Shown one piece after another: positions 16,414 to 53,589 of a stretch of 64,000 bases of DNA (positions are counted from its first letter, which is position 1; each line of letters starts with the position of its first letter). Under the pieces are notes generated by a model, which did no database searches, was not told where the DNA came from, and worked only from the letters and a program-made list of their open reading frames with translations. Origin of the DNA: an uncultured Eubacteriales bacterium (GTDB lineage: Bacteria; Bacillota; Clostridia; Oscillospirales; Oscillospiraceae); contig OMVL01000007.1 of NCBI GenBank assembly GCA_900314485.1, positions 3,070-67,069 of the forward strand, given 5' to 3'. A program made the translations under genes and the position numbers.

Positions 16414-18219
16414 ATGGATCAATCGAACATTCGCAACTTTTCTATCATCGCCCATATTGACCACGGCAAGTCTACGCTGTCCGACCGACTGATCGAGCTC
16501 TGCGGCGCTGTGGCGGAGCGGGACATGGAGAGCCAGCTTCTGGACAACATGGACTTAGAGCGGGAGCGGGGCATCACCATCAAGGCGAGAGCCGTCACGC
16601 TGCACTACAAGGCGGACGACGGGGAGGAGTATCAGCTTAACCTGATCGACACCCCGGGTCACGTGGACTTTAACTACGAGGTCAGCCGGTCTCTCGCCGC
16701 CTGCGAGGGGGCGGTTCTGGTGGTGGACGCCAGTCAGGGCGTGGAGGCCCAGACGCTGGCCAATACCTACCTGGCCCTGGACCACGATTTGGAAATTCGC
16801 CCGGTGGTGAACAAGATCGACCTCCCTGCCGCCGACCCGAAGCGGGTGAAGGAGGAGATTGAGAACATCATCGGCCTTCCCGCCGAGGACGCCCCGGAAA
16901 TTTCCGCCAAGGCGGGCATCAATATCCCCGCTGTGCTGGAGGATGTGGTGACGAACGTCCCCGCCCCCTCCGGAGATCCGGACGCTCCTCTGAAAGCGCT
17001 GATCTTCGACAGCCAGTACGACGCCTATCGGGGGGTCATCGTGCTGGTCCGGGTCATTGACGGAAAAATTGAGGTGGGCACCGAGGTCAAAATGATGGCC
17101 TCCGGCGCTTCCTACAAGGTGGTGGAGTGCGGTCATATGCTGCCCATCGGGCTGGACCCCTGCGGGACGCTCTCCGCCGGCGAGGTGGGCTACTTTACCG
17201 CCAGCATCAAAAACGTCCGGGATACCAACGTGGGCGACACGGTGACAGAGGCACAGAATCCCACCGCAGAACCGCTCCCCGGCTACCGTCCCGCCCAGCC
17301 CATGGTCTACTGCGGCATTTACACCGAGGACGGCTCCAAATACCCCGACCTGCGGGACGCCTTGGAGAAGCTGCAGCTCAACGACGCATCCCTTGTCTTT
17401 GAGCCGGAGTCCTCGGCGGCATTGGGCTTCGGCTTCCGCTGCGGATTTTTGGGCCTGCTGCACATGGAGATCATTCAGGAGCGGTTGGAGCGGGAGTTTG
17501 ATCTCGATCTGGTCACGACGCTCCCCAACGTCATCTATGAGATTGAGAAGACGGACGGCACTGTCCTGCGGGTGGACAACCCCCACGACTACCCGGACCC
17601 CGGCTCCATCCGGGAGGCCAGGGAGCCCTATGTCAACGTCTCCATCATCACCCCCAACACCTATGTGGGCGACATTATGCCCATCTGTCAGGAGCGCCGG
17701 GGCGAGTATCAGGACATGCAGTATCTGGACGCCAGTCTGGTGGAGCTTCACTATCAGCTGCCCCTGAACGAGACCATCTTTGACTTTTTCGACACCCTGA
17801 AAGCCAACACCAAGGGCTACGCCTCGTTGGACTATGAGCTCTCGGACTACCGCCCCAGCAATCTGGTGAAGGTAGACCTGCTGCTAAACGGCGACAAGGT
17901 GGACGCCCTCAGCTTTATCGTCCACAAGGACAAGGCCTACGCCCGGGCACGCCGCATCTGCGAGAAGCTGAAGGAGAACATTCCCCGTCAGCAGTTCGAG
18001 GTGCCCATTCAGGCGGCCATCGGCGGCAAGATCATCGCAAGAGAGACGGTGAAGGCGCTGCGGAAGGACGTCCTTGCCAAGTGCTACGGCGGCGACATCA
18101 CCCGGAAGAAGAAGCTGCTGGAAAAGCAGAAGCGGGGCAAGAAGAAGATGCGCTCGCTGGGTACGGTGCAGCTGCCGACGGAGGCGTTTATGGCTGTGCT
18201 GAAACTGGACAGTCAATAA
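16414..18219 (+). CDS. lepA: Elongation factor 4
   Basis: [52 protein letters not shown]. Confidence 0.98.
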
Positions 18220-38070: not shown

Positions 38071-38346
38071 ATGAATTACGTGTATATCCTCCGCTGCGCT
38101 GACGGCACTTTGTATACCGGCAGCACGACCGATTTAGACCGCCGTCTGGCTGTCCATAACTCCGGCAAGGGAGCGAAATATACCCGTTCCCGCCGCCCGG
38201 TAGAGCTGATCTACCACGAGGAGCTGGAGAGCTGGTCTGCCGCTCTGCGGCGGGAAGCTGCCATCAAAAAGCTGACCCGGGAGGAGAAGCTGGGTTTGGT
38301 GGAGCGCAACAGAAAAACGCCGCCCCCGGAAGAAATTACCGGTTGA
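38071..38346 (+). CDS. Small GIY-YIG nuclease family protein (UPF0213/YhbQ-like)
   Basis: YVYILRCADGTLYTGST..RR...HNSGKGAKYTRSRRPV. Confidence 0.93.
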   Translation: MNYVYILRCADGTLYTGSTTDLDRRLAVHNSGKGAKYTRSRRPVELIYHEELESWSAALRREAAIKKLTREEKLGLVERNRKTPPPEEITG

Positions 38347-38960: not shown

Positions 38961-40487
<1,527 letters not shown>

Positions 40488-41245: not shown

Positions 41246-41827
41246 TCAGTTTTCCCCCTCCAGGAAATAGGTCGCCTCCATGTCGGCAACGGAGAGGGCG
41301 AAGGCCAGGGGGAACATCTGAAACGCCTTGCCCACGCTGCCCTTGTCCTCATTTCCGGAAAAGCCCATGTGATAGCGGATGGCGAAGGCCTCCTCCCTTG
41401 TCAGCCGGAGGTAGCCGTTGACGATGTAGACGCTCTTCTCCCCGTGGCCATAGGGCAGGGGGTCGTCAAACTGGTAGGAGGGCACCTTTGTCCACTGCCC
41501 GTCCTCCCCCTTGACGTTGCGGAAGGTCTTCTTATAGCACCCCGCCTTGCACACGTCGTGTAAGAGCGCCACCAAAGCGATGGTCTCCGGGGTGTACTCC
41601 AATCCGTACAGCTCGTTCACCCGCTCCCGGCTCAAATAGTCCGCCAGACAGTGGTAGACGTTGAGGCTGTGCTCACACAGTCCCCCCTCATAGGCCCCGT
41701 GATACCGGGCGGAGGCGGGGGCGGTGAAAAAATCGCTCTTATTGGTCAGGTAGTCCAGCAGAGCGTCCGCTCCCGGGCGGGTGATGTTCTCTTTAAAAAT
41801 CTCAATAAATTCCTCTTTGCAGGACAT
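41246..41827 (-). CDS. HD-domain hydrolase
   Basis: APASARYH, GGLCEHS, LLHDVCK, HGEKSV, AIRYHMG. Confidence 0.88.
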   Translation of the reverse strand: MSCKEEFIEIFKENITRPGADALLDYLTNKSDFFTAPASARYHGAYEGGLCEHSLNVYHCLADYLSRERVNELYGLEYTPETIALVALLHDVCKAGCYKKTFRNVKGEDGQWTKVPSYQFDDPLPYGHGEKSVYIVNGYLRLTREEAFAIRYHMGFSGNEDKGSVGKAFQMFPLAFALSVADMEATYFLEGEN

Positions 41828-41969: not shown

Positions 41970-42524
41970 ATGGAACAAGGACTGATGCTGGCTCTGCTGC
42001 TGGTGACGGCGAACCTGGACACCTTGCTGCTGGCGGCTGTCTGGCACAGCGACGGACGGCGCATTACATGGCAGGAGGCGGGGATTTTGACCCTCACGAC
42101 CTCGCTGATGACGGGGCTTGCGCTGCTTTTGGGGCAATGCGGCAGCGGACTGTGGAGCGTGACGGCGGCAAAGCGGATCTCTGCCCTGCTGCTGGTGGGC
42201 ATGGGGCTGTGGATGCTGCTGGACTGGCTGCGTCAGCTGGGCGAGACTGCGGCGGAGACTGCCCCGAAGAATCCTCACAGCCTCGCATCCAGCCTGCTGC
42301 TGGGTCTGGCGCTGGGGGCGAACAACAGCGGACTGGGACTGGCGGCGGGACTGGCAGGCATCTCCCCTGTCTGGGCAGTGCTGGGCAACGCCGTCGTCAC
42401 GCTGGCTGCCCTGGCCTTGGGCGGCTGTCTCGCCGGCAGGTGGCTGGGCAAGGTATTGGGAGACTGGCAGGTGCCGATCTCCGGAGCGCTGCTCATTGTA
42501 ATGGGTGCGCTGGCGGGCATATAA
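41970..42524 (+). CDS. MntP/YtaF-family membrane protein
   Basis: ANLDTL and LALGANNSGLGLAAG motifs within six TM helices, YtaF-like. Confidence 0.7.
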   Translation: MEQGLMLALLLVTANLDTLLLAAVWHSDGRRITWQEAGILTLTTSLMTGLALLLGQCGSGLWSVTAAKRISALLLVGMGLWMLLDWLRQLGETAAETAPKNPHSLASSLLLGLALGANNSGLGLAAGLAGISPVWAVLGNAVVTLAALALGGCLAGRWLGKVLGDWQVPISGALLIVMGALAGI

Positions 42525-42592
42525 ATATACGAAAAGCATCCCCTTTGGCTTTTGCGGCTAAAGGGGATGCGTGCGTTATTATAATGTATGGC

Positions 42593-45500
42593 TCACTTTT
42601 TTCTGGGATTCAGCACAACGCTCCCCACGGCAGTCTCCTCCGCTCTCCCCAGAAAGAGGGCGTGCTCCACGCCCCGGCGGCCGCAGTCCAGTGCGGCGTC
42701 AGACCAGGGCTTGTAGCCCAGCTTCCGGGCGGCGGCCATGGCCAGCTCCTCGGGAGAGAGGGCCAGCTGCTCTTTCAAAACGGCGCAGACGGCGTTGGCG
42801 CTTTCCTGGCAGGGCACATCTTCCGGACGGCGGAAATGCTCTCCCGTGCCGGAGCGGCGGAAGAGGCGATACCGGTCCGGGTCCTGCGAGGGCAGCCAGA
42901 CATAGTCCCGCTCTTCCTCGTGAGTGATGCGCAGCCCCAGCTTTTGCCACAGACTTGCACAGCGGGCCGCCAGTTCCTCGTCCTGATCGTCCAGTCCGAA
43001 GGCCTTCAGCATCCGCTCGGTCAGCTGCGGCACCGCCATGGGGGCCTCCTGGAGCAAAATCTCTTCCACCACCCGGTAGACCCGGTTCTGGAAGGCGGGA
43101 CTGGATACTTCGCCGGAGCGGATGCCCATGACAGTCAGCTTCGCCCTGGTGTAGAGGGGGACAGGCTCCTCCCGGGGGACCTTGGCTGCCGGGACGGTAC
43201 GGGCCGGCTTGCGGGTGCAGAGCCGATCCATCTGCTGCGCCACCGCATCCAGCACATAACGGCGGCTGCGCCACCAGTCCAGAGTCCACACCCGGCACAG
43301 GGGCCAGCCCTGAGCTCGCAGCAGCTCTGGAATGGTCACCTCCCGCTCCCGGGTGCGCAAAATACGGCCGTAGTCGGCGTCGTCCAGCAGCAAGCCCAGG
43401 GGCGGCAGGTCCGGCCGATCCTTGCTGCGTACCTGCACGGAGACAGGCCGGGGGCCGGGGGTGGCCAGATAGCCCAGCTCACTTAGCCCCTGGCACAGCT
43501 CTGACTGGATCCGGTCACGGGGGACGGGGATTTGGCAAGGCGCCTGTTCCTGCCGCACATAGGAGAGGAACCGGGCCAGGGGGGCGGAGACTGCCTCCGC
43601 CTGGGGCCGGTCCTGCTCGTCCAGAGAGGAGAAGACCCAGACCTCCCCGGTTGCGGCGGCGAGGATGTGGGAAAAGAGCAGATCGTCCTTCCAGCCGGCG
43701 GCCACCGCCTTGGCGTCCGTCAGCTGCTCGTTGCTGTTTGCCCCGATGGTCAGGGACAGGAGCACCCGCTGCCACTTGCCGCAGACCGCCTCCTCCGGGG
43801 TCAGCACTTCAATGCCGTCCCCTCCCGACTGGGCCAGCAGCAGACGGATCAGGTCCGCCTGCTCCCAGGTCATGGCAATGATGACAAAGGAGGGGCTGTC
43901 CTCTCCGGAGAGGAGCAGCGCCTGCTCTGCCACTGCGGCGGCCTCGGCGGGATTGACAGGTCCGTCCATCCGGCCCACCACCGTCTTGTAGCGGAAAGCC
44001 GAGCGCTCCGGCCGGGGACTGGGCAGGGGCCTTGTGCCGTAAAGGTCCCGGTCCGGCTGTCCCAGAGACTCCGGCCGGGTGAGATAGCACTGCTCCAGGG
44101 AAACGGCGGGCAGTCCCAGCTCCTTGCAGCCCACGGTCAGGCTGACCTCCCTGCCAAAGAGGGGGTGATCCGTTTCGCCCTTGGCCGCAGAGAGGAGCAG
44201 GGCAGTCCTGCCCAGACCCAGCACCGCCTGGCCCAGAGGCAGGGGCAGCTGTCCGGCGTGGTCGATGACAACATAGTCAAAGGGAATATTGCCCTCCAGA
44301 TCCGGGCCAAAGCAGCGCAGGGCGTCGGCGGGGCTTGCGATGACGCAGGGAAAGAGCAGGGCGGTCAGCTTGGGAAGCCCCCGGAGCAGTCCGCTCAGGG
44401 CGATGTCCTTTGCTCCCGTGCGGTTGGCCCAGCGCAGGAGATTCAGCTCCTCCTGCAGTTCCTCGTCCTGAGGGATGTTTGGAATGGCCGCCGCAGCCAC
44501 GTGGAACAGCTCCTCCCGGGTGCGCCGGGTGAACTGGCGCTCCATAAGGGTGTACTGCCCCAGGGTCTCCCCGAACTGGCGGGAAGAGAACTGCTTGCGG
44601 GAGGGCGCCCGCTCCAGCTCCTGCAATACCAGCGCCCGGTACAGGCTCTTGCGAAACAGCTTTGCCGTGTCCTCCCCTTCCGGGACGGGCTTGGCGTAAT
44701 GCTCGGCAAAGGAGCCGAGTCCCAGCCCCTCCGCCTGACGGCACAGACCGTGCCAGCGCATCCACAGCTCCAGCTGGTCCAGATGGTCGATGATGGTGCG
44801 GCTGTTGTCCTGCAATTCGACGAGCCAGTCGCCCCCCTCCCGGGAGAGTCGGGCGGAGACCAGAGCCTCCATCTCCCCTTCCGCCGCCTGAACGGCCTCG
44901 ATCGCATCAGCCAGCTCGGCGGAGAGGGACAAAATCTCCTCGTTGCGGGCAAACTTGGCCCGCAGCTCCAGATCGCCGGTATTCTCCGCAATCCGGTCGT
45001 CAGACTCCACCGCCTGCAGGCTGAGGGGATAAAGGGTGTCCCAATCGGTCTCCGTCCCCTCGTACAGGCCGGCCAGTTCGTGCTCCCAGCGGTGATAGAG
45101 GGCGTCCAGCGCCTCCTCCTCCCGCTGACGACGGGCGAGGGCGGAGAGCACGCCGGCAATTTCGCCCAGAGGGACAGGCTCTGTGGCCAGCTCCTCCAAA
45201 TGATTGCGGATTTTGATCAGGTTCCGGAGCCGGCGGCAGTCGTTGCGCCGGTCTGAGAGCCAGTCCTTGCTGTCCGGCTGCCCGGTCCGGCCGATCATCA
45301 CGTCCAGCCGGCCCAGCACCTCCCGGGACCGCTCCCACAGCTCCTGCAGCTCCCCGGCGGCAGCCACCGCCTCCCGGTCGCTGCCGTATCGGAGGAGGAA
45401 ATCCTCACTGCCGGTCAGCTCGCTGAGCCAGTCGTGGCTCTCTGCCGCCACCCGGCGGGCGGCCTCCAGCCAGACCCAGACCGTCTCCTCCCGCCGGTAG

Positions 45501-47749
45501 ACGGAGCGCAGCTCCCGCTCCCAGCGGTGGTAAATTTCGTCGCACTGGGCCAGCTCCTCCTGATAATCCGCCAGCCAGCGCAGACCGCTCTCGGCCAGGT
45601 CGGTGGTCAGCTTCGTCTTGCAGAAAGGCTCGATGACGGCCCGGGTGCTGTTCTGCCGCTTCAACAGGCCGAGTCCCCAGCTGCCGCCCTCTGTCTCCCA
45701 GTCGGCCAGCAGCTCTTTGCCGTTCTGGGAGAGAAACGCCTCCGTCCAGTCCCGGAGCAGCACTTCCTTGCTCTCCTTAGCCTGCTTGCCGGCGTCGATC
45801 AGCTCGCCCACATCCCACAGCAGAGCCTGCAGCCCCTTGCAGCTGCCCCACTCGCTGGGGATCTCCTTCCAGCGGGCCAGTTCGACGGCTACCTCATAAT
45901 ACCGCTCCCAGCTGTCCCGGGTGCCGGGGACGGGGACATTGACGCATTTGGACCAGCGGCGTCCGCACTGCTCCAGGCGGTTCAGCAGCGCCTCTGCCTC
46001 CACGGACAAGCGCCGGAAGGCGCTCTCCCGGTCCGGCTCCGAGGGCAGGGACCATTCCGCCTTGTGGAACTTCCACTGCTGCTCCAGAGAGACGGCGTCC
46101 AGAGAGAGGATGTCCTCCCCCCACTGTTCCGCAATCTCCCGGCGGAGCTTGTCCGCCAGATCCGTCCGGCTCTTCAGCTCCTGCACCGTGTCGCTCAGCA
46201 GCGGAACCCGGGGCGAATCCGCCCAATGGTCGGGATAGTCCCGCCATTTGACCAGCAGCCTTGCCGCCTGGGCCAGCTTGCCCCAGTCCTCCCGGGTGCT
46301 GGGCCGGGTCACGCCCGTCTCGTCCAGCCAGGTCCAGGCTGCCTCGTTGAGCCGGAAAATGGCGGAGCGGAGGGCATCTTCCGCCTGGGGCAGCTGTGCT
46401 GCCCGCTCCGGGTCGTAGGTCTCGCCCTGAATGAGGGCCAGAGGATGGTTCCAGGGAGTTCCCAGCGCCCCGGCGGCGTCGGTGAGATCGTCGATGCAGG
46501 AAAGCCGACGGGAAAGCCCGTCCGGATCCAGTTCGGCGGCAACATGCTCGGAGATGGGAAGATACCCCTCTGCCTCCCGCTCCTCGGAGTAGCGGCAGAC
46601 CAGCTCAAAGGGGGTCAGTCCGCAGCGGCAGGGGGTGTGCAGGTCGGCTGCGGTCCGGTCCAGCTGACCGGAGAGAGACAAAACGGCGGCGGCCAGAGAA
46701 AAGTAGTCCTCGGCGGCGGTGGTGGGCCGAAGCTGAGCCGCCACATTAAACTGGTGCAGTACGGTACGGCGGCTGTCGCCCCGGACGGGAAGAGAGAGGC
46801 AGAGCCGGTCAAGGCCCATCTCCTCCATCCGCTCCAATGCCGAGCGGCGGTCGGCCACCGACGGGGAGACCAGCAGCACCCGCTTCCGGTCTCCTATGGC
46901 GTTGGCCATGAGGGCTGCGGCCAGCTGAGTCTTGCCGGTGCCGTGATGTCCCTCTGCAATAAGAGAGTTTCCCTCCAGCACATAGCGGAGGGCGGACATT
47001 TGGCCGCCGTCCAAGGGCAGGGGGGCCAGTACGTTGGCCTCGCCCTGTATATCGTCCCGCTCCGGAAGGGGAGCCGGGTCTATAAGAGCCCCGTCCTGCA
47101 GCCGGGCGCCGAAGCTGTCCGCCGGCAGCAGCTGCTCCGGGTCAGGCCGCTCTAAGAGCCACAGAGGAAAGTCCCCCAGCCACAGACCGTTCTGCCGCCG
47201 CCAGTCCGGGGCGTCAGCCAGAATTTGGTCGATCTGCCGGTACAGCGGCTCCCGATTCAGGCTCCACTCCTCCTCCGGCGGGGTTGCCGCCTGTGCCAGA
47301 CGGTCCAAAGCCGGGCGGTTGAGCAGCTGCCCCTCTCCGCTGCGCACGAGCTGCCAGCCCTCCGGGCGCTGTTCCAGCTGAACCGGCCAGAGGAGCAGGG
47401 GGGCGGAGACGCCCTCTACGGAAAAAAGCCGCCCCTCGGCCAGGCATAGGCCGCTGTGACCGTAGACGCTGCTCTCCCGCCGGGTGCGGGCGGAGAGTGC
47501 GGCAAGGGCGGCGGACAGCCTGTCCCCGTTCAGATCGGCCACCGCCACAGGGGTGTCCAGGCCCTCCGCCGGGGTTTCCCTCGGGCAGAGCGGCACCGGC
47601 CGCCCCTCGGTCAGGGCGGCGGTGAGCGCCTCCCCGCCGGGCTGGCCCAGAGGGATGAGGGGCTCTGCCTGCTCCAGATGGCAGAGCGGGCCGCTGTATG
47701 CCGTTTGATCCATGAGCAGTGCCCAGGGATGGATGGTCTCGTCTTTCAT
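42593..47749 (-). CDS. DUF4011 - SF1 helicase-like - Vsr/REase-like - DUF3320 protein (Hhe-like), motifs degenerate
   Basis: APLLLWPVQL (DUF4011), GHHGTGKT, LFPCVIASP, VVIDHAGQL, GWPLCRVWTLDWW, C-terminal winged-helix-like region. Confidence 0.75.
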   Translation of the reverse strand: MKDETIHPWALLMDQTAYSGPLCHLEQAEPLIPLGQPGGEALTAALTEGRPVPLCPRETPAEGLDTPVAVADLNGDRLSAALAALSARTRRESSVYGHSGLCLAEGRLFSVEGVSAPLLLWPVQLEQRPEGWQLVRSGEGQLLNRPALDRLAQAATPPEEEWSLNREPLYRQIDQILADAPDWRRQNGLWLGDFPLWLLERPDPEQLLPADSFGARLQDGALIDPAPLPERDDIQGEANVLAPLPLDGGQMSALRYVLEGNSLIAEGHHGTGKTQLAAALMANAIGDRKRVLLVSPSVADRRSALERMEEMGLDRLCLSLPVRGDSRRTVLHQFNVAAQLRPTTAAEDYFSLAAAVLSLSGQLDRTAADLHTPCRCGLTPFELVCRYSEEREAEGYLPISEHVAAELDPDGLSRRLSCIDDLTDAAGALGTPWNHPLALIQGETYDPERAAQLPQAEDALRSAIFRLNEAAWTWLDETGVTRPSTREDWGKLAQAARLLVKWRDYPDHWADSPRVPLLSDTVQELKSRTDLADKLRREIAEQWGEDILSLDAVSLEQQWKFHKAEWSLPSEPDRESAFRRLSVEAEALLNRLEQCGRRWSKCVNVPVPGTRDSWERYYEVAVELARWKEIPSEWGSCKGLQALLWDVGELIDAGKQAKESKEVLLRDWTEAFLSQNGKELLADWETEGGSWGLGLLKRQNSTRAVIEPFCKTKLTTDLAESGLRWLADYQEELAQCDEIYHRWERELRSVYRREETVWVWLEAARRVAAESHDWLSELTGSEDFLLRYGSDREAVAAAGELQELWERSREVLGRLDVMIGRTGQPDSKDWLSDRRNDCRRLRNLIKIRNHLEELATEPVPLGEIAGVLSALARRQREEEALDALYHRWEHELAGLYEGTETDWDTLYPLSLQAVESDDRIAENTGDLELRAKFARNEEILSLSAELADAIEAVQAAEGEMEALVSARLSREGGDWLVELQDNSRTIIDHLDQLELWMRWHGLCRQAEGLGLGSFAEHYAKPVPEGEDTAKLFRKSLYRALVLQELERAPSRKQFSSRQFGETLGQYTLMERQFTRRTREELFHVAAAAIPNIPQDEELQEELNLLRWANRTGAKDIALSGLLRGLPKLTALLFPCVIASPADALRCFGPDLEGNIPFDYVVIDHAGQLPLPLGQAVLGLGRTALLLSAAKGETDHPLFGREVSLTVGCKELGLPAVSLEQCYLTRPESLGQPDRDLYGTRPLPSPRPERSAFRYKTVVGRMDGPVNPAEAAAVAEQALLLSGEDSPSFVIIAMTWEQADLIRLLLAQSGGDGIEVLTPEEAVCGKWQRVLLSLTIGANSNEQLTDAKAVAAGWKDDLLFSHILAAATGEVWVFSSLDEQDRPQAEAVSAPLARFLSYVRQEQAPCQIPVPRDRIQSELCQGLSELGYLATPGPRPVSVQVRSKDRPDLPPLGLLLDDADYGRILRTREREVTIPELLRAQGWPLCRVWTLDWWRSRRYVLDAVAQQMDRLCTRKPARTVPAAKVPREEPVPLYTRAKLTVMGIRSGEVSSPAFQNRVYRVVEEILLQEAPMAVPQLTERMLKAFGLDDQDEELAARCASLWQKLGLRITHEEERDYVWLPSQDPDRYRLFRRSGTGEHFRRPEDVPCQESANAVCAVLKEQLALSPEELAMAAARKLGYKPWSDAALDCGRRGVEHALFLGRAEETAVGSVVLNPRKK

Positions 47750-47782
47750 GGTGTGCTCCTGACTGGGTGTAAGGGTGGTGAT

Positions 47783-48715
47783 TTATTCGGCAGAGGCTTG
47801 CGCCGAAGCCTCTTGCGCCTGTTCTGCCTGGGCGGCAAAATAGTTGTCAATGCCGTCTGCGATGCCGGAGGCCAGCAGCAGCTGGTATTCCTCCGTTGCC
47901 ATCTTTCTGTCCTCCTCGGGGTTGGTCATATAGCCCATCTCCACAATGGTCACCGGCACCTCGCACCAGTTGATGCCGGTCATGGTGTCCGTCTCCCAGA
48001 CGTATTCTTTTTTTGCCCCGGTGGCGGCCACCAGAGCGTCCAGCACGGCGTCGGAGAGGGCTCTGGACTGCTCATAGAGATAGGCGTTGTAGGGATTGGA
48101 GGGGGTCATGCAGATGGTCATGGCGCCGTTGGCCTTCTGGCTCTCCGAGCCGTTGGCGTGAATGCGGATAAAGGCATCCGCTCCCGCCTCGTTTGCCACC
48201 TGGCTCCGCTCCACGTTGCTGATGTCCACGTCGTTTTCCGTCCGGACCATGACCACTTTGTAGCCCCGGCTTTCCAGCTCCGCCTGAAGCTTGAGGGATA
48301 CCTGCAGCGTCAGCTCGTACTCATACAGCCCAGTGGACACGCCCCGGGTGCCGCCGGTCACTCTCGCCTTCATGGTGGATGAGCCCGGGCCGTTGGGCTC
48401 TTTGGCATTGCTGCCCTTCTGCTGGTGTCCGGCGTCAATGCAGATGATGAGCGGTTCGGGTTCAGGCTCAGTCTCCGGCTCAGTCTCCGGCTCAGGTTCC
48501 GGTTCGGGCTCCGGCTCTGGCTCCTGAGCGGCCCGGGCGGCCGCTTCCGCCTCCTCCGTCAGGTCCTCCAGAGCGGGAGCGTCGGATGTCTCTGACTCCG
48601 CTGTCTGCGGGGGATCGTTGGCCTGGGAGGGCTGAGCGGTCTCCTCTGAGGCGGCGCAGCCGGCGCAGGAGAGAAGAAGAGCAAGGGCAAGAAGAAAAAG
48701 GACAGATCGTTTCAT
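47783..48715 (-). CDS. N-acetylmuramoyl-L-alanine amidase (Amidase_3) lipoprotein
   Basis: Lipobox-like signal peptide, (EP)n linker, [24 protein letters not shown]. Confidence 0.92.
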
Positions 48716-49070
48716 GGAAAGGTCTCCTTCCGAGTGGAATTCTTTTTTCCAATTGTATCATTTCCTGCCCTGTTTCGCAATAGACCCGGCGGTCAGGAGG
48801 GACGGATACTTCTTAAATGTAATGAATTTTGAGCGCCGGAGCGTGAGGCGGGAAAACGGCGAAGGCAGAGAAAAGAATGAATTTTGTTGCCGGAAAGTGG
48901 TTTTTAGAACTCTTTTTTCGGTCAAAAGACCGTCAAACAGATGGAAGACGGCAGCCTTGAAAAAAGCAAAAATGTCATTTTGTCCATTGCAATTGAAAAA
49001 GGGAACTGCTATACTATAGCTGGGTATCCATCAAACGCTGGGCAGAGTCTGCCCAAAGGAGGAGATACAT

Positions 49071-49850: not shown

Positions 49851-49902
49851 GTACTATGCCGTTCCTCCCGACCCTGCGCTGTGAGTAAAAGGAGTGTCAT
49901 CT

Positions 49903-52900
49903 GTGAAGCATCCATTTTTAAAACGATCCATCTGCCTGCTTCTGGCAGTGCTGAGCGTGCTGGCAATGCCGGCCTATGCCCTGGAGGGCGTCGCTCAGGC
50001 GGAAGAGGCACAAAGCGACGGACAGAAGACGGTCCAGAGCGATCCCTTTGACCCGTCAGGGGAGGCAACCGAGAAAGAGACGCCGAATGTACCTGAGGTG
50101 GAAGTGCCCACCGTCTTTGTCAACGAGGACGGCAGCTACCGGGCCCCCGAGGACATCGCCGTATATGTCATGCGGCACATGCAGGAGACCTCCCTGTCCA
50201 ACCCCTCTCAGGCGGACGAACGGTATACCGGCGTCGTGGCCTTCTATGACTACGCTGAGGGCAATGAAAAGACCCGTCTGGAGCACCCCTATTTCTTCTA
50301 CTACGAAAAGGGCGAGCTGCAGGACAAGGACCCCGCTTTCTATCTGGCCAAGGGCTATCTGGATCTGACCGAGGCTCCCGTGGCGGACAGCAGCATCAAT
50401 CCTGCGGCCGGCGAGGAAGAGGACCGGCTGGTCTACGTGGCGGAGGAGCGCTATGTGGACGAGAATGCCGAGGAGCATCCCGCCTATCTCTTTGCCTTTC
50501 ATCAGGAAGAGGGCGAAAACGGCCTGTTTACCGGCGATTATGAAGAGACCGCCTATGTGGACGGTCTTGCCGTGACGGCGGAGGGGCCGGGGGCGGCAGA
50601 GCCTGTTCAGCCGGAGACTGTTCAGGAGACGCAGGCGGCAGAGAGCATTGACCCCGCTGGGCCGGCCAAGGCGCCTGCGGCTGACCCTGAGGACCCCTCT
50701 GATCCGTCTGACCCTACCGATCCTGAGCCGCAGGGACCCACCGTCGTGCATACGGTTCCGACAGTCACGGTAAAGACGGTCTCCGCCGGCATCCAGATTG
50801 CCTGGGGCGCGGATGAATACGCAACCGGCTTCCGTGTGTACCGCAAAAACGGAAACGGGGACTGGGGAAGGATTGCGGACCTGACCGATGGCAATGCGGT
50901 CTCCTACGTAGATACCCGTGCTCCCAGCAACGCAAACCTTTCCTACACCGTCCGTGCCTACTATGGGGACACGGCGAATATAAGCAACAATCCCTATGGC
51001 AGCGGCGATTGGAGCGGCTTTGCCGGCACCGGCCCGCTGTACTACCTGGCGGCCCCTGTGCCCAGCGCATTCGGCGCGGCTTCCAAGATCACCGTCTCTT
51101 GGAAGGCAGTGGCCGGCGCTGACTACTACATTGTCTATCGAACAGAGAGCGACGGCTCCTGGAAGCGCGTGGCAATGGTCACAGCCGACAAGCTGAGCTA
51201 TGTGGACACCACCGCCGTGAGCGGCTCCAGCTACTATTACACCCTCCGGGCTTATAACAAGGCGCGTGACGCATGGAGCCTCTTTTACGATACCCGTCAG
51301 GACAGCATCAACCGTGTATCGCTCCACGCAACCCCGGTGGTGAAGCTGATACCTACGACTACCGGCATCAATGTCACCTGGAACAAGGATGCCGCCGCTA
51401 CCGGCTATCGGATCTACCGGAGCCTTTCCGACGGCACCACGATTGTGCTTGCGAACATCACCTCCGGCAACACCACAAGCTATATGGATACCAAGGTGAC
51501 CAACGGACAGAGCTATTCCTACGGAGTCCGTGCCTACTACGGCGATGTGACCAAGCTCTCCACTGCCACTGTAGCGTCCGCCGCTGCGATGTGGAGCGAT
51601 GTGATCGCCGTCCGGACGATCTTTATGAAGACGCCCCAGTTTACCACGACCTACAGTGATAACGCCGGCATGGTCGTTCAGTGGACGGCAGTGGCCGGTG
51701 CAACGGGCTATTTGCTCTACCGCCGTTCCTCCACCGCGGAGAACTGGACTCGGCTGGCGTTTGTGACCAACGGCACCACCTATCAGGATAAGAGCGTAAC
51801 GAACGGCAAGCCCTATTACTATGCGATCCGGGCATATAAGACGGACGCAAAGGGCACCAAGTATTTCAGCGTTGACACCGATCAGACTACGGCCACGGTC
51901 TACCATGCGACGGTGAATACCACGGTGGCGGCTGTTCCTGCCGGCCTCCGGATCAGCTGGAACCTGGATTCCAGGGCCGTTGGCTACCGCGTCTACCGTC
52001 TGCACGGCAACGACGCGAAGGTCGTTGCGAACATTTCGGCATCCTCGCTGAAGGCCGGCCAGACACTTGCCTATGTTGACGATCCCGCCACCGATCTCAA
52101 GGCGGGTGATACCTATTATTACACCGTCCGAGCCTATTACGGCACAGGCTCGATCAACGTTGTCAGAGCGGATGTCCGTACCGACTGGAACGGATTTGTC
52201 TGGAAAGCGGCAGTCTATATGGCCACGCCCCATATGGCGGAGTTTGCTACCAACGAGCCTACCGGCATCAAGGTCAAGTGGAACACCGTTGCCGGCGCTG
52301 CAGGCTACTACATTTACCGCCGGACCGCCACGGGCAACTGGCATGGGGTCGGTAGCGTTCAGGGCGGAACCACCAATGCCTATATTGACACCACTGCCAC
52401 GAAACTGCCCGCAGGCACGGTATGCTATTATACGGTCCGGGCCTTTTCCGCGAAGGGAGTTTCCATCAGTTATTTTGAGCCCACAGGCTCCTATGCCCTC
52501 TATCTGCCCAAGCCCGGCGGAGTAAAGGTAGCGCCTGCCACCTCCAGGGGCACCACAGTGACCTGGAACAGCGTCAAGGGCGCAACCAGCTATACTGTGT
52601 TCCGCCATCCCCAGGGCGGCGGTTCCTGGACCCAACTGGGCACGGTGACGGGAACCAGCTATGTGGATGCCAGCGCCAATAAGACCACCGACCGTTATAT
52701 TTACACCATTCGTCCCAGCGCCGCAGTTACGGTCAACGGGAAAAAGGTGACCATCGTGGGCGATTATGACCGCACAGGTTACCAATCCGGTATTACCTGG
52801 AGCGGCGAGGAGCGCAACGACTGGGTGAAGAAAAACGGAAACACCTACTATGTGGATAAAAACGGCTTTCTGCTCACCGGCTGGCAGTATCTCAAGCGCA

Positions 52901-53589
52901 ACGGCAGACAGTACAAGTATTACTTTGACGAGGAGACCGGCGCACTGGTGACCAATCTGTATTCCTACTTCGGCAAGGAGTACCGGAGCATGAAGTGCCG
53001 CATCGAGGTGTACATCAATGCCAAGAGCAGCAGTAATCCCAGCTTCATGACCATCTATGTCTACGATGGGGCCACGGATTCTTACTGCATCCCCACGGTT
53101 TCCGTCCGCTGTATCGGCAGTCCGGTCAATAGCATTGCCACCAACTCGGGCTATCTGGGCAGAGGCGGCGGTTCCCGCTGGGCCTCTCACATGGAAGGTC
53201 TGCAGTACGCAACCTATATCCACGGTACCCCCAGCTATTTCCACTCGGTCATGTTCCGGAGCAATTCCAACCATGCCCTGGCCTACAGCACCTATAACAG
53301 CCTGGCCAACAACCGGAACAACTCCAACGGCTGCATCCGCATGCAGTGCATCTATGCGTATCTGATTCAGGACATCACCCATAACGGCTACGGCCTGCAC
53401 AACAGAGTCCCGGTCAGGATCTACAAAAACGGCTCTCAGCCCGGCCCCTTCGGTGTGCCTAAGATGGACAAAATCTCCAGCCGAAGCACAGAACCTACGG
53501 ATCCCTCCATTACCGGAAAGTTCTTCTACAGCACCAGCACGGTCGGCGTCAAGGTGACCGGCGGCGCTCCGGCCTGGACCTATTATTGA
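49903..53589 (+). CDS. Secreted FN3-repeat cell-wall protein with C-terminal L,D-transpeptidase (YkuD)-like domain
   Basis: Signal peptide (GTG start after AAGGAG); about seven to eight I.W.....GY.VYR...Y.D.....Y.Y.VRAY repeats; choline-binding-like YYVDKNG..LTGWQ; FHSV...SNGCIRM. Confidence 0.8.
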   Translation: MKHPFLKRSICLLLAVLSVLAMPAYALEGVAQAEEAQSDGQKTVQSDPFDPSGEATEKETPNVPEVEVPTVFVNEDGSYRAPEDIAVYVMRHMQETSLSNPSQADERYTGVVAFYDYAEGNEKTRLEHPYFFYYEKGELQDKDPAFYLAKGYLDLTEAPVADSSINPAAGEEEDRLVYVAEERYVDENAEEHPAYLFAFHQEEGENGLFTGDYEETAYVDGLAVTAEGPGAAEPVQPETVQETQAAESIDPAGPAKAPAADPEDPSDPSDPTDPEPQGPTVVHTVPTVTVKTVSAGIQIAWGADEYATGFRVYRKNGNGDWGRIADLTDGNAVSYVDTRAPSNANLSYTVRAYYGDTANISNNPYGSGDWSGFAGTGPLYYLAAPVPSAFGAASKITVSWKAVAGADYYIVYRTESDGSWKRVAMVTADKLSYVDTTAVSGSSYYYTLRAYNKARDAWSLFYDTRQDSINRVSLHATPVVKLIPTTTGINVTWNKDAAATGYRIYRSLSDGTTIVLANITSGNTTSYMDTKVTNGQSYSYGVRAYYGDVTKLSTATVASAAAMWSDVIAVRTIFMKTPQFTTTYSDNAGMVVQWTAVAGATGYLLYRRSSTAENWTRLAFVTNGTTYQDKSVTNGKPYYYAIRAYKTDAKGTKYFSVDTDQTTATVYHATVNTTVAAVPAGLRISWNLDSRAVGYRVYRLHGNDAKVVANISASSLKAGQTLAYVDDPATDLKAGDTYYYTVRAYYGTGSINVVRADVRTDWNGFVWKAAVYMATPHMAEFATNEPTGIKVKWNTVAGAAGYYIYRRTATGNWHGVGSVQGGTTNAYIDTTATKLPAGTVCYYTVRAFSAKGVSISYFEPTGSYALYLPKPGGVKVAPATSRGTTVTWNSVKGATSYTVFRHPQGGGSWTQLGTVTGTSYVDASANKTTDRYIYTIRPSAAVTVNGKKVTIVGDYDRTGYQSGITWSGEERNDWVKKNGNTYYVDKNGFLLTGWQYLKRNGRQYKYYFDEETGALVTNLYSYFGKEYRSMKCRIEVYINAKSSSNPSFMTIYVYDGATDSYCIPTVSVRCIGSPVNSIATNSGYLGRGGGSRWASHMEGLQYATYIHGTPSYFHSVMFRSNSNHALAYSTYNSLANNRNNSNGCIRMQCIYAYLIQDITHNGYGLHNRVPVRIYKNGSQPGPFGVPKMDKISSRSTEPTDPSITGKFFYSTSTVGVKVTGGAPAWTYY

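What the first reader, a model, noticed from the sequence alone, without database searches (positions are those of the whole stretch)
42593..47749. Intact 1718-aa Hhe-like helicase-nuclease with catalytic motifs substituted
The domain order matches DUF4011-helicase-Vsr-like-DUF3320 proteins of the Hhe anti-phage system. Compared with family motifs as I recall them, Walker A GPPGTGKS is GHHGTGKT and Walker B DEASQ is DHAGQ. HYRS is CYLT, motif VI RRLNVAITRA (arginine finger) is LLFSHILAAA, and the nuclease IDL...IECDG is VQV...LLDDA. The frame stays open for 5.1 kb with host-like codon usage among housekeeping genes. Inference: a domesticated pseudo-enzyme acting as scaffold, sensor or decoy, rather than an active defence nuclease.
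Basis: partly seen in the sequence, partly recalled or inferred. Interest (0 to 1): 0.68.

Follow-up and report, generated by a model that had tools for sequence, protein, structure and literature searches.

The report
Catalytically dead ProA-type defence helicase relative
A 1718-residue gene in a cattle-gut Oscillospiraceae bacterium is an intact, selected and probably transcribed offshoot of the ProA/PDC-S37 anti-phage helicase-nuclease family that keeps the fold but has lost almost all catalytic residues, so it most likely works without enzymatic activity.

Summary
The ORF (42593-47749, minus strand, 1718 aa) is real and intact. A profile-profile alignment (E 4e-100, end to end) shows it is homologous to DUF4011/SF1B-helicase/Vsr-like/DUF3320 proteins. 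The nearest named family is ProA (NCBIfam NF058533, equal to PADLOC PDC-S37), not Hhe, and it fails both curated cut-offs.

Lost: the Walker B Glu, motifs III, V and VI, and both nuclease acidic residues. Walker A (GHHGTGKT) still fits GxxxxGK[ST], although it and the Walker B Asp decay in other members of the clade. The nuclease Glu is also missing from about half of the bona fide ProA proteins sampled.

Intact orthologues (46-72% identity) occur in 15 species-level genomes of animal-gut Oscillospiraceae, partly at the same amidase/HD locus. dN/dS is about 0.25, against 0.04-0.16 for most neighbours. Synonymous codon usage matches the host. AlphaFold models are confident and match Upf1-like helicases. 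Constraint has moved from the helicase core to a duplicated Trp-rich helical insertion and the C-terminal domains.

Verdict: a maintained pseudo-helicase/pseudo-nuclease and a new variant of a known family. A scaffold or sensor role is inferred, not shown.

The parts
42593..47749 (-). Whole ORF: 1718 aa plus stop. A ProA/PDC-S37-derived pseudo-helicase/pseudo-nuclease.
   Evidence: hhalign E 4e-100; NCBIfam ProA 417 bits against a cut-off of 1500; PADLOC PDC-S37 2.6e-81
47756..47760 (-). Shine-Dalgarno AGGAG, 6 nt upstream of the ATG at 47749-47747.
47030..47539 (-). DUF4011-like N-terminal domain (aa 71-240). The core LCLAEGRL...SAPLLLWPVxL is conserved across the clade.
   Evidence: Pfam DUF4011 18.3 bits, below the gathering score; aligned to the ProA DUF4011 region; invariant columns
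46730..47029 (-). RecA-like domain 1A, N-terminal half (aa 241-340), carrying the Q-like motif DGGQ (247-250) and motif Ia.
   Evidence: Pfam DEAD/AAA_30 sub-threshold hits at 246-332
46928..46951 (-). Walker A GHHGTGKT (aa 267-274). It still fits GxxxxGK[ST]. In other clade members it is K->R (6 of 18) or T->R (3 of 18).
44360..46729 (-). All-helical insertion inside domain 1A (aa 341-1130). It contains tandem duplicated modules: 480-600 resembles 600-720, and 720-860 resembles 860-1000. Residues ~524-650 have no counterpart in ProA.
   Evidence: AF2 secondary structure; shuffle z-scores 12.7 and 17.4; hhalign gap
45170..45979 (-). Trp-rich core of the insertion (aa 591-860). This is the most conserved part of the protein in the clade: 34% invariant columns, dN/dS 0.16.
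44150..44359 (-). Domain 1A, C-terminal half (aa 1131-1200). Walker B is FDYVVIDHAGQ: Asp1163 is kept and the catalytic Glu is replaced by His. Motif III is lost (ALLLSAAKGETD).
43550..44149 (-). RecA-like domain 2A (aa 1201-1400). Motifs IV, V and VI are degenerate and the arginine fingers are lost (LLFSHILAAAT). This is the least constrained folded domain (dN/dS 0.54, 9% invariant columns).
   Evidence: fold matches Dna2, Sen1, Upf1 and IGHMBP2
43250..43489 (-). Vsr/MTES_1575-like domain (aa 1421-1500). It lacks the first Asp (VSVQV) and the Glu (LLLDD). It keeps Asp1456, Tyr, RTRERE and CRVWTLDWW.
   Evidence: Pfam MTES_1575 25.1 bits against 38.2; alpha-beta-beta-beta-alpha-beta pattern in the AF2 model
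42596..43159 (-). DUF3320-like C-terminal region (aa 1531-1718). It is predicted as two helix-helix-helix-hairpin units and is well conserved (25% invariant columns, dN/dS 0.17).
   Evidence: hhalign to the ProA C-terminus
47783..48715 (-). Upstream co-oriented gene: a lipoprotein-type N-acetylmuramoyl-L-alanine amidase (Amidase_3), 33 nt from the ORF. It is probably co-transcribed. The neighbour is conserved in window, L004, L007, L008 and L018.
48752..48780 (-). Sigma-70-like promoter match upstream of the amidase gene. This is a consensus match only.
41246..41827 (-). Downstream co-oriented HD-domain protein (193 aa). In L004 and L008 it lies 9-13 nt after the orthologue. Here it is separated by an opposite-strand YtaF/MntP-like gene (41970-42524).

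Best explanation
The gene encodes a maintained pseudo-enzyme. It is a lineage-specific offshoot of the single-gene ProA/PDC-S37 family, the relatives of Hhe with the architecture DUF4011, split Upf1-like SF1B helicase with a long helical insertion, Vsr-like nuclease and DUF3320.

Shown:
- Full-length homology and a retained fold.
- Loss of the Walker B Glu, motifs III, V and VI (the arginine fingers), and both acidic residues of the nuclease motif.
- Within the clade even the P-loop Lys/Thr and the Walker B Asp are replaced in a third to a half of the species, so ATP hydrolysis is not a conserved property and ATP binding probably is not either.
- The reading frame, length and domain order are preserved over 46-72% identity in at least 15 species, partly at one syntenic locus, under purifying selection.
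- The strongest constraint now lies in a Trp-rich, internally duplicated helical insertion and in the C-terminal nuclease-like and DUF3320 regions, not in the motor.

Inferred: the protein acts non-catalytically, as a nucleic-acid- or partner-binding scaffold or sensor that uses the dead helicase/nuclease folds and the expanded helical insertion as binding surfaces. RecC and AddB are precedents for this use of dead helicase and nuclease folds. Whether it still serves phage defence (with an effector supplied in trans) or has a cellular role is open.
For: Homology and architecture:
- hhalign probability 100%, E 4e-100, over residues 22-1715.
- ProA 417 bits and PDC-S37 272 bits are the best library hits.
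- Canonical relatives score 1590-2190 bits on ProA and over 1100 on PDC-S37.

Motif loss.

Fold retained:
- AF2 pLDDT 88.9 and 89.6.
- Foldseek probability 1.0 to Aquarius, Dna2, Sen1, Upf1 and IGHMBP2.

Not decaying:
- 15 GTDB species carry it, intact wherever the contig allows.
- At least 12 distinct 1718-aa variants in independent assemblies.
- dN/dS 0.25 against L007, with dS 0.75.
- Polymorphism is 7-8 synonymous to 3 non-synonymous between assemblies, and 8:8 in RNA contigs.
- Host-like synonymous codon usage.
- Shine-Dalgarno sequence and a 33-nt gap to the upstream amidase.
- Metatranscriptome contigs cover the gene at depth 2-9, similar to the amidase.

Shift of constraint: insertion core dN/dS 0.16 with 34% invariant columns, against domain 2A at 0.54 and 9%.

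Synteny: TatD-amidase-gene-HD is shared down to 47-49% identity.

Not phage-borne in IMG/VR.

Precedent: RecC and AddB use dead helicase or nuclease folds as DNA-recognition scaffolds (PMC1185551, PMC3321194, PMC4824097).
Against: - No biochemical data exist. In this particular species Walker A, the Q-like Gln and the Walker B Asp are intact, so nucleotide binding, or even slow hydrolysis through a non-canonical base, is not excluded.
- About half of the canonical ProA relatives sampled also lack the nuclease Glu, so the catalytic residues of that domain may not be the ones assumed.
- dN/dS is 2-6 times that of most neighbours, and amino-acid divergence far exceeds theirs (47% against 71-94%). 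Part of the protein is therefore weakly constrained.
- RNA evidence comes from assembled metatranscriptome contigs at low depth, and DNA carry-over cannot be excluded.
- No conserved partner gene was found across all loci, and no binding activity was tested.
Confidence: 0.7

Rival explanations
1. It is still an active anti-phage ProA-type enzyme whose active sites are merely non-canonical. ATP would be bound by the retained P-loop and hydrolysed with a displaced catalytic residue (for example the Glu or Asp two positions after the Walker B Asp in DxAEQ/DxADQ orthologues). The Vsr-like domain would cut DNA with its remaining Asp.
For: - Walker A, the Q-like Gln and the Walker B Asp are intact in the window protein.
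- Many orthologues carry an acidic residue at Walker B +3.
- 104 ProA-type relatives with intact helicase motifs also lack the nuclease Glu.
- Rapid evolution at a fixed locus resembles arms-race genes.
Against: - Motifs III, V and VI, including both arginine fingers, are gone in all clade members.
- The P-loop Lys or Thr is replaced in 9 of 18 orthologues, and the Walker B Asp in 6 of 18.
- The window protein has Gly, not an acid, at Walker B +3.
- The first nuclease Asp, kept in nearly all ProA, is absent in every clade member.
- The helicase 2A domain is the least constrained part.
Confidence: 0.1
2. It is a nucleotide-binding but non-hydrolysing switch that regulates its operon partners, the cell-wall amidase upstream and the HD phosphohydrolase downstream. 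That would be a housekeeping role unrelated to phage defence.
For: - A 33-nt gap to the co-oriented amidase, with no terminator between.
- Amidase-gene-HD adjacency is conserved in window, L004, L007, L008 and L018 down to 47% identity, with 9-13 nt between the gene and HD in L004 and L008.
- The P-loop is intact in exactly these syntenic genomes.
Against: - Other orthologues (L003, L005, L009-L015, L019-L021) sit in different neighbourhoods without these partners.
- L008, which is syntenic, has lost the Walker B Asp.
- No known functional link exists between such proteins and amidases.
- The neighbours are far more conserved than the gene.
Confidence: 0.12
3. It is a relic: a defence gene that lost function and is drifting towards pseudogenisation. 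The long open frame would be favoured by high GC content.
For: - Loss of nearly all catalytic motifs.
- Divergence much faster than the neighbours.
- dN/dS of 0.54 in domain 2A and about 1 in one linker.
- One MAG carries a split copy of 662 + 1055 aa.
- All public annotations read 'hypothetical protein'.
Against: - A 5.1-kb frame is kept intact, with conserved length, in 15 species at 46-72% identity.
- Overall dN/dS is 0.25, and 0.16-0.17 in the insertion core and the DUF3320 region.
- 34% of insertion-core columns are invariant.
- The gene has a Shine-Dalgarno sequence, host codon usage and RNA contigs.
Confidence: 0.05

Closest known systems
ProA (NCBIfam NF058533 'anti-phage protein ProA'), the same family as PADLOC candidate system PDC-S37
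   Same: - Full-length homology and the same domain order: DUF4011, SF1B helicase split by a long helical insertion, Vsr/MTES_1575-like domain, DUF3320.
- It gives the best hit in both libraries.
- It is a stand-alone gene, as ProA is.
- The 'LLD' form of the nuclease motif is shared with a large ProA subgroup.
- Some bona fide ProA proteins also lack the roughly 350-residue N-terminal extension (P0108).
   Different: - It scores 417 bits against a cut-off of 1500.
- It lacks the Walker B Glu, motifs III, V and VI, and the first nuclease Asp. All of these are near-invariant in ProA.
- It has an extra duplicated module of about 130 residues in the insertion.
- Conservation is concentrated in the insertion instead of the motor.
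- It is restricted to animal-gut Oscillospiraceae.
- I could not find the paper that named ProA, so its mechanism is unknown to me.
Hhe (NCBIfam NF042953; PADLOC PDLC02194), a DUF4011 helicase-nuclease anti-phage protein
   Same: The same general architecture, and detectable similarity around the P-loop region (residues 247-336).
   Different: It scores only 74 bits against a cut-off of 2000 and 44 bits in PADLOC. Canonical ProA proteins themselves score about 740-860 bits on Hhe, so Hhe is a cousin family, one step further away. The catalytic motifs are absent here.
RecC of RecBCD and AddB of AddAB (dead SF1 helicase and nuclease folds reused as DNA-recognition scaffolds)
   Same: This is a functional analogy only. 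A helicase fold has lost its motor motifs (AddB keeps a Walker A, my recollection), and in RecC an inactivated PD-(D/E)xK nuclease-like domain is retained. These folds are kept under selection as binding or scanning surfaces (PMC1185551, PMC3321194, PMC4824097).
   Different: - They belong to a different helicase subfamily (SF1A, against Upf1-like SF1B here).
- RecC and AddB work as subunits of an active motor complex, and no partner is known here.
- There is no sequence relationship.
Upf1-like SF1B helicases (Upf1, IGHMBP2, Sen1/SETX, Dna2, Aquarius)
   Same: They give the best structural matches for the two RecA-like domains (Foldseek probability 1.0, 280-430 aligned columns). The canonical ProA profile hits them by sequence.
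   Different: The clade profile hits PDB helicases only weakly, and only over the P-loop segment (E 0.002). The catalytic motifs are absent, and the 790-residue insertion and the C-terminal domains have no counterpart.

Membership tests
ProA / PDC-S37 | Whole-protein score above the curated NCBIfam cut-off (NF058533, 1500 bits) | tested here: not met
   417.4 bits in 4 stretches. Controls P0012, P0014, P0019, P0057, P0104, P0108 and P0111 score 1591-2194 bits.
ProA / PDC-S37 | Domain order: DUF4011, helicase 1A with a long insertion, 2A, Vsr-like domain, DUF3320 | tested here: met
   hhalign probability 100%, E 4e-100, query 22-1715 against template 333-1883. The AF2 models are consistent with this.
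ProA / PDC-S37 | Intact SF1B motor motifs: Walker A GPPGTGKS, Walker B DEASQ, III GDxxQLPP, V QGDERD, VI RRLNVAxTRAR | tested here: not met
   Only Walker A (GHHGTGKT) and the Walker B Asp survive. All other motifs are replaced. About 195 of about 210 relatives keep all of them.
ProA / PDC-S37 | Nuclease-domain acidic residues: the Asp in RxDhhV and the hE/LxDG motif | tested here: not met
   The first Asp is absent (VSVQV) in all clade members and present in about 200 of 210 relatives. The Glu is absent, but it is also absent in 104 ProA-type relatives. The Asp of the LLD motif is kept.
ProA / PDC-S37 | Confers phage resistance | not testable with these tools
   The library labels are taken as given. 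No paper on ProA was found.
Hhe | Whole-protein score above the NCBIfam NF042953 cut-off (2000 bits), or a strong PADLOC Hhe hit | tested here: not met
   74.2 bits and 44.3 bits, covering only residues 247-336.
Pfam DUF4011 / AAA_11 / AAA_12 / MTES_1575 / DUF3320 | Hits above the gathering thresholds | tested here: not met
   MTES_1575 25.1 against 38.2; DUF4011 18.3 against 22.2; DEAD 22.3 against 26; no AAA_11, AAA_12 or DUF3320 hit.
Upf1-like SF1B helicase fold | Two RecA-like domains superposable on solved SF1B helicases | tested here: met
   Foldseek probability 1.0, E 1e-8 to 1e-6, to Dna2, Sen1, Upf1, IGHMBP2 and Aquarius, using models with pLDDT 89.
Pseudo-enzyme (maintained, non-catalytic homologue of an enzyme) | Catalytic residues lost, while the gene stays under purifying selection and is expressed | tested here: met
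   Motif loss; dN/dS 0.25 and intact orthologues in 15 species. Expression is supported only by low-depth metatranscriptome contigs. Lack of activity itself is not testable here.

The most novel reading that the evidence does not exclude
A single-gene anti-phage helicase-nuclease (ProA type) was captured by a gut Oscillospiraceae lineage and converted into a non-enzymatic chromosomal factor. Its function would now reside in an expanded, duplicated Trp-rich helical insertion and in tandem winged-helix-like C-terminal domains. Two forms of this reading are possible. In one, it is a DNA- or RNA-binding sensor, or a 'guard/decoy' that phage anti-ProA factors engage. In the other, it is a structural partner of the co-transcribed cell-wall amidase and HD phosphohydrolase. 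Either would be a documented case of a defence enzyme turned into a dead scaffold, with a traceable stepwise decay: Glu lost first in the LLDG subgroup, then the motor motifs, then the P-loop in sublineages.
Probability: 0.2. Interest if true: 0.7.

Novelty: new variant of a known kind. Interest (0 to 1): 0.45.

Why it matters
Large single-gene helicase-nuclease defence proteins such as Hhe and ProA/PDC-S37 are widespread, but I found no mechanistic study of ProA. A natural variant that keeps the entire architecture under selection while discarding both catalytic centres helps separate what the non-catalytic parts do: the DUF4011 domain, the helical insertion and the DUF3320 region. It also shows that annotation pipelines miss such derivatives, since every public copy is labelled 'hypothetical protein'. 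If the protein proves to be a sensor, decoy or scaffold, it would be a bacterial example of an immune enzyme turned pseudo-enzyme, comparable to RecC and AddB in DNA repair. If it proves inert, it still documents how such genes decay in steps.

Tried and rejected
- **Hhe membership.** Rejected. The scores are tiny compared with ProA.
- **Recent horizontal acquisition, suggested by the +10-point GC excess.** Rejected. GC3 and synonymous codon fractions match the host. Every orthologue shows the same GC excess over its own flanks. The locus is syntenic down to 47% identity.
- **Phage or mobile origin.** There are no relatives in IMG/VR and no mobile-element genes beside it.
- **A conserved partner gene across all loci.** My crude ORF-based neighbourhood clustering was noisy, because antisense ORFs in GC-rich DNA were picked up. 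It found only the amidase group and a second group sharing an upstream gene of about 250 aa. There is no universal partner.
- **Placing the clade within ProA by a neighbour-joining tree.** The clade joined other long-branch degenerate lineages (P0047, P0081, P0050). This is probably long-branch attraction and disagrees with the E-value ranking, which favours the LLDG subgroup. I do not rely on it.
- **Literature on ProA/PDC-S37.** Four searches found nothing, and one broad search was wasted on HHEX hits.
- **JGI metagenome scan for closer relatives.** It returned only one partial locus, so dN/dS rests on GTDB and ENA loci with dS of 0.75 or more.
- **PDB sequence search.** There is no solved ProA or Hhe structure.
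- **Taxon labels for the nearest active relatives.** These were mostly unavailable. One cluster includes a Methanocorpusculum MAG.
Full report
**1. The observation**

An AGGAG Shine-Dalgarno sequence lies 6 nt upstream of the ATG. The stop codon of a co-oriented Amidase_3 lipoprotein gene lies only 33 nt upstream, with a sigma-70-like match ahead of that gene and no terminator between them.

The rest of the window is ordinary chromosome: malic enzyme, an HtrA-like protease, a sensor kinase, LepA, Dus, MiaA, a class I tRNA synthetase, the glgBCDA genes, gdhA, TatD, MgtE and leuA.

**2. Family assignment**

Pfam alone barely recognises the protein. MTES_1575, DEAD and DUF4011 are all below their gathering scores, and there are no AAA_11, AAA_12 or DUF3320 hits.

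The defence libraries give a clearer answer:
- PADLOC: best hit is PDC-S37 (2.6e-81), with Hhe only 9e-13.
- NCBIfam: best hit is 'anti-phage protein ProA', NF058533, at 417 bits against a cut-off of 1500. Hhe scores 74 bits against a cut-off of 2000.

The more distant homologues from the big protein search have 22-30% identity, about 1950-2000 aa, and the Pfam set DUF4011 + AAA_11/12 + MTES_1575 + DUF3320. They score 1590-2190 bits on ProA and over 1100 on PDC-S37. ProA and PDC-S37 are therefore the same family, and it is the nearest named one. Hhe is a cousin one step further away.

A profile of the window protein's clade aligns end to end with a profile of 20 canonical ProA proteins. hhalign gives probability 100% and E 4e-100, aligning residues 22-1715 against 333-1883. 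The protein lacks the roughly 330-residue N-terminal extension of most ProA proteins, but so do some bona fide members (P0108).

**3. The motifs**

In the profile alignment the quoted strings fall opposite the canonical motifs:

| Motif | Canonical | Window protein | Status |
|---|---|---|---|
| Q-like | DSSQ | DGGQ | Gln kept |
| Walker A | GPPGTGKSQ | GHHGTGKTQ | kept |
| Walker B | FDEASQ | IDHAGQ | Asp kept, Glu lost |
| III | GDxxQLPP | SAAKGETD | lost |
| IV | HYRSRHESL | CYLTRPESL | degenerate |
| V | QGDERD | CGKWQR | lost |
| VI | GGERRLNVAVTRAR | KDDLLFSHILAAAT | both Arg lost |
| Nuclease 1 | YRVDLAV | PVSVQVR | Asp lost |
| Nuclease 2 | GIECDGASYH | GLLLDDADYG | Glu lost, Asp and Tyr kept |
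| Nuclease 3 | RVWSTDWW | RVWTLDWW | kept |

Two qualifications come from wider sampling. I classified about 210 family members with full coverage of these motifs:
- 78 carry hExDG and all motor motifs.
- 104 carry all motor motifs and the first nuclease Asp, but lack the Glu; their motif is hLLDG, hMLDG or a similar Glu-less form.
- The window protein's best-scoring active relatives, at E about 1e-76, belong to the second group.

Loss of the Glu is thus shared with about half of the canonical relatives sampled, probably ancestrally. Loss of the first Asp and of the motor motifs is specific to this clade. A few other lineages (P0115, P0050, P0208) show partial motor decay and also fall below the ProA cut-off.

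**4. The clade**

An exhaustive HMMER search of 1.84 billion representatives finds only about four 50%-level clusters of this type. There is then a gap to E 1e-76.

Fifteen GTDB species-level genomes carry an orthologue at 46-72% identity. All are animal-gut Oscillospiraceae/Ruminococcaceae: Candidatus Onthomonas, the cultured isolate Clostridiales bacterium NK3B98, and rumen, goat and chicken MAGs. The window sequence itself occurs at 99-100% of sampled words in many bovine gut metagenomes. Its 90% cluster includes an NCBI record labelled 'hypothetical protein [Candidatus Onthomonas sp.]'.

Every orthologue is open over its full length wherever the contig allows. At least 12 distinct 1718-aa variants exist in independent assemblies. 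One MAG carries a split copy of 662 + 1055 aa, which is either a real lesion or an assembly error. No relative is found on IMG/VR viral contigs.

Within the clade the ATP site is not conserved:
- The P-loop Lys is Arg in 6 of 18 sequences.
- The P-loop Thr is Arg in 3 of 18.
- The Walker B Asp is Ser, Leu or Glu in 6 of 18.

**5. Composition**

The gene's GC (0.67) exceeds its flanks (0.57). This is not a sign of foreign origin. GC3 (0.83) lies within the neighbours' range of 0.73-0.86, and synonymous codon fractions are nearly identical to the pooled neighbours. The excess lies in GC1 and GC2 and reflects a protein rich in Leu, Arg, Glu, Ala, Pro and Trp. All orthologues show the same excess over their own flanks.

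**6. Selection and synteny**

The order TatD - amidase - gene - (YtaF/MntP-like, opposite strand, only in the window species and L007) - HD protein is shared by the window, L007 (72% identity), L004 (49%) and L008 (47%). The amidase is also upstream in L018. In L004 and L008 the HD gene follows the orthologue after 9-13 nt.

Other orthologues sit in different neighbourhoods, so there is no universal partner. Canonical ProA genes are likewise stand-alone: one lies among housekeeping genes and one in a mobile region.

The neighbours are far more conserved than the gene. In L008 the identities are HD 94%, GdhA 91%, TatD 77% and amidase 71%, against 47% for the gene.

Nei-Gojobori estimates against L007 give dS 0.75, dN 0.19 and dN/dS 0.25. 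Neighbours range from 0.04 to 0.16, and the adjacent surface protein is at 0.36. More distant pairs are saturated. Within-species differences are 7-8 synonymous to 3 non-synonymous between assemblies, and 8:8 among RNA contigs. The neutral expectation is roughly 1:3.

Per-domain results:

| Region | Invariant columns | dN/dS |
|---|---|---|
| Trp-rich core of the insertion (aa 591-860) | 34% | 0.16 |
| DUF3320-like region | 25% | 0.17 |
| Nuclease-like domain | 24% | 0.23 |
| RecA-like domain 2A | 9% | 0.54 |

In canonical ProA the pattern is the opposite. The motor motifs are invariant and the insertion is poorly conserved.

**7. Structure**

AlphaFold2 was run with alignments of the clade plus ProA sequences. 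It gives confident models for residues 200-1399 (pLDDT 88.9) and 1100-1718 (pLDDT 89.6).

The models show:
- Two RecA-like domains that superpose on Upf1-like SF1B helicases (Aquarius, Dna2, Sen1, Upf1, IGHMBP2, ZNFX1) with Foldseek probability 1.0.
- An all-helical insertion of about 790 residues inside domain 1A.
- An alpha-beta-beta-beta-alpha-beta unit at the Vsr-like position.
- Two helix-helix-helix-hairpin units in the DUF3320 region. The winged-helix reading is mine, from the secondary structure alone.

The insertion contains two pairs of tandem duplicated modules: 480-600 resembles 600-720 (z 12.7), and 720-860 resembles 860-1000 (z 17.4). Residues ~524-650 have no counterpart in ProA. 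An extra module has therefore been added in this clade, and it now carries the most conserved sequence. No ProA or Hhe structure is in the PDB by sequence.

**8. Expression**

Several bovine gut metatranscriptome runs hold 30-97% of the gene's sampled words. Their contigs cover the ORF at depth 2-9. That is similar to the amidase and below TatD, and it is orders of magnitude below gdhA. This fits low-level transcription, but DNA carry-over cannot be excluded.

**9. Interpretation**

Shown: this is a full-length, fold-retaining homologue of a defence-type helicase-nuclease. It has lost the residues needed for ATP hydrolysis, for coupling and for metal-dependent cleavage, yet it is kept intact under purifying selection in a gut Oscillospiraceae lineage, and constraint has moved to non-catalytic parts.

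Inferred: it acts by binding rather than catalysis. The closest functional precedents are RecC and AddB, where dead helicase and nuclease folds serve as DNA-recognition scaffolds (PMC1185551, PMC3321194, PMC4824097).

Not resolved: whether the role is still in phage defence (as a sensor or decoy with an effector supplied in trans) or cellular (for example linked to the co-transcribed amidase and HD genes in part of the clade).

The rivals are listed with their tests: a non-canonical active enzyme, a nucleotide-binding switch for operon partners, and a decaying relic. The relic reading is largely excluded.

**10. Novelty and score**

The protein fails the membership tests of ProA and Hhe: the curated cut-offs, the motor motifs and the nuclease Asp. 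It clearly descends from the ProA family, so I class it as a new variant of a known kind.

Pseudo-enzyme derivatives are common in general. A specialist would find this a useful lead rather than a surprise. Interest: 0.45.

Noticed in passing
window 44360-46729 (aa 341-1130 of the ORF): The helical insertion contains two pairs of tandem duplicated modules: aa 480-600 resembles 600-720 (z 12.7), and aa 720-860 resembles 860-1000 (z 17.4). One example is the repeated YHRWExEL..Y...ET.W. Residues ~524-650 are an extra module with no counterpart in ProA.
   Followed up: partly
L003, L010, L013, L017, L020, L021 and L009, L011, L014 (orthologues), at the position of window aa 267-274: The P-loop decays in lineage-specific ways: GGRGSGRT (Lys to Arg) in one subclade and GGIGTGKR or GAIASGKR (Thr to Arg) in another. 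In L008, L009, L011, L014, L018 and L019 the Walker B Asp is Ser, Leu or Glu. This suggests stepwise loss of the ATP site.
   Followed up: partly
proteins P0115, P0050, P0208: Other ProA-family lineages show partial motor decay, for example LDGASQ or VDGATQ at Walker B and a decayed motif VI. They score 929-1180 bits, below the ProA cut-off. Motif loss has therefore happened more than once in this family.
   Followed up: partly
about 104 ProA-type proteins, e.g. P0104-P0135: About half of the canonical ProA/PDC-S37 relatives sampled have a Glu-less motif (mostly hLLDG or hMLDG) instead of hECDG in the Vsr-like domain, while keeping all helicase motifs. Either the nuclease is inactive in this subgroup or the Glu is not essential.
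   Followed up: no
window 41970-42524 (+): A YtaF/MntP-like membrane protein gene lies on the opposite strand between the ORF and the HD gene in the window species and in L007. It is absent in L004 and L008, where the HD gene follows directly. It is probably an insertion into an older amidase-gene-HD unit.
   Followed up: partly
window 49894-53589 (+): A 1231-aa surface protein (fn3 repeats, GH85_C, a choline-binding repeat) evolves even faster than the ORF: 54% identity to L007, 37-38% to L004 and L008, and dN/dS 0.36-0.52.
   Followed up: no
window 39138-40487 (+), gdhA: Glutamate dehydrogenase reaches very high contig depth in rumen metatranscriptomes, up to about 4900 against 2-9 for the ORF. 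Many partly matching contigs there come from related species.
   Followed up: no
cluster of P0009: proteins P0277 and P0278 (MBQ9165950.1, MBQ9165951.1): One Oscillospiraceae MAG carries the orthologue as two adjacent ORFs of 662 and 1055 aa on one 6.4-kb contig. This is either a genuine disruption or an assembly or frameshift error.
   Followed up: no
window 38071-38346 (+) and the 67-aa HTH gene between the HD gene and gdhA (seen in L001 at 16653-16856): A small stand-alone GIY-YIG protein (91 aa) and an HTH_3/HTH_31 protein (67 aa) lie within 5 kb of the ORF. No link to it was established.
   Followed up: no
window 42068-47155, both strands: Several long ORFs of 470-574 aa overlap the gene: 42068-43486, 43532-45256 and 45434-47155, all on the opposite strand. 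They are typical of GC-rich coding DNA and have no independent support.
   Followed up: no
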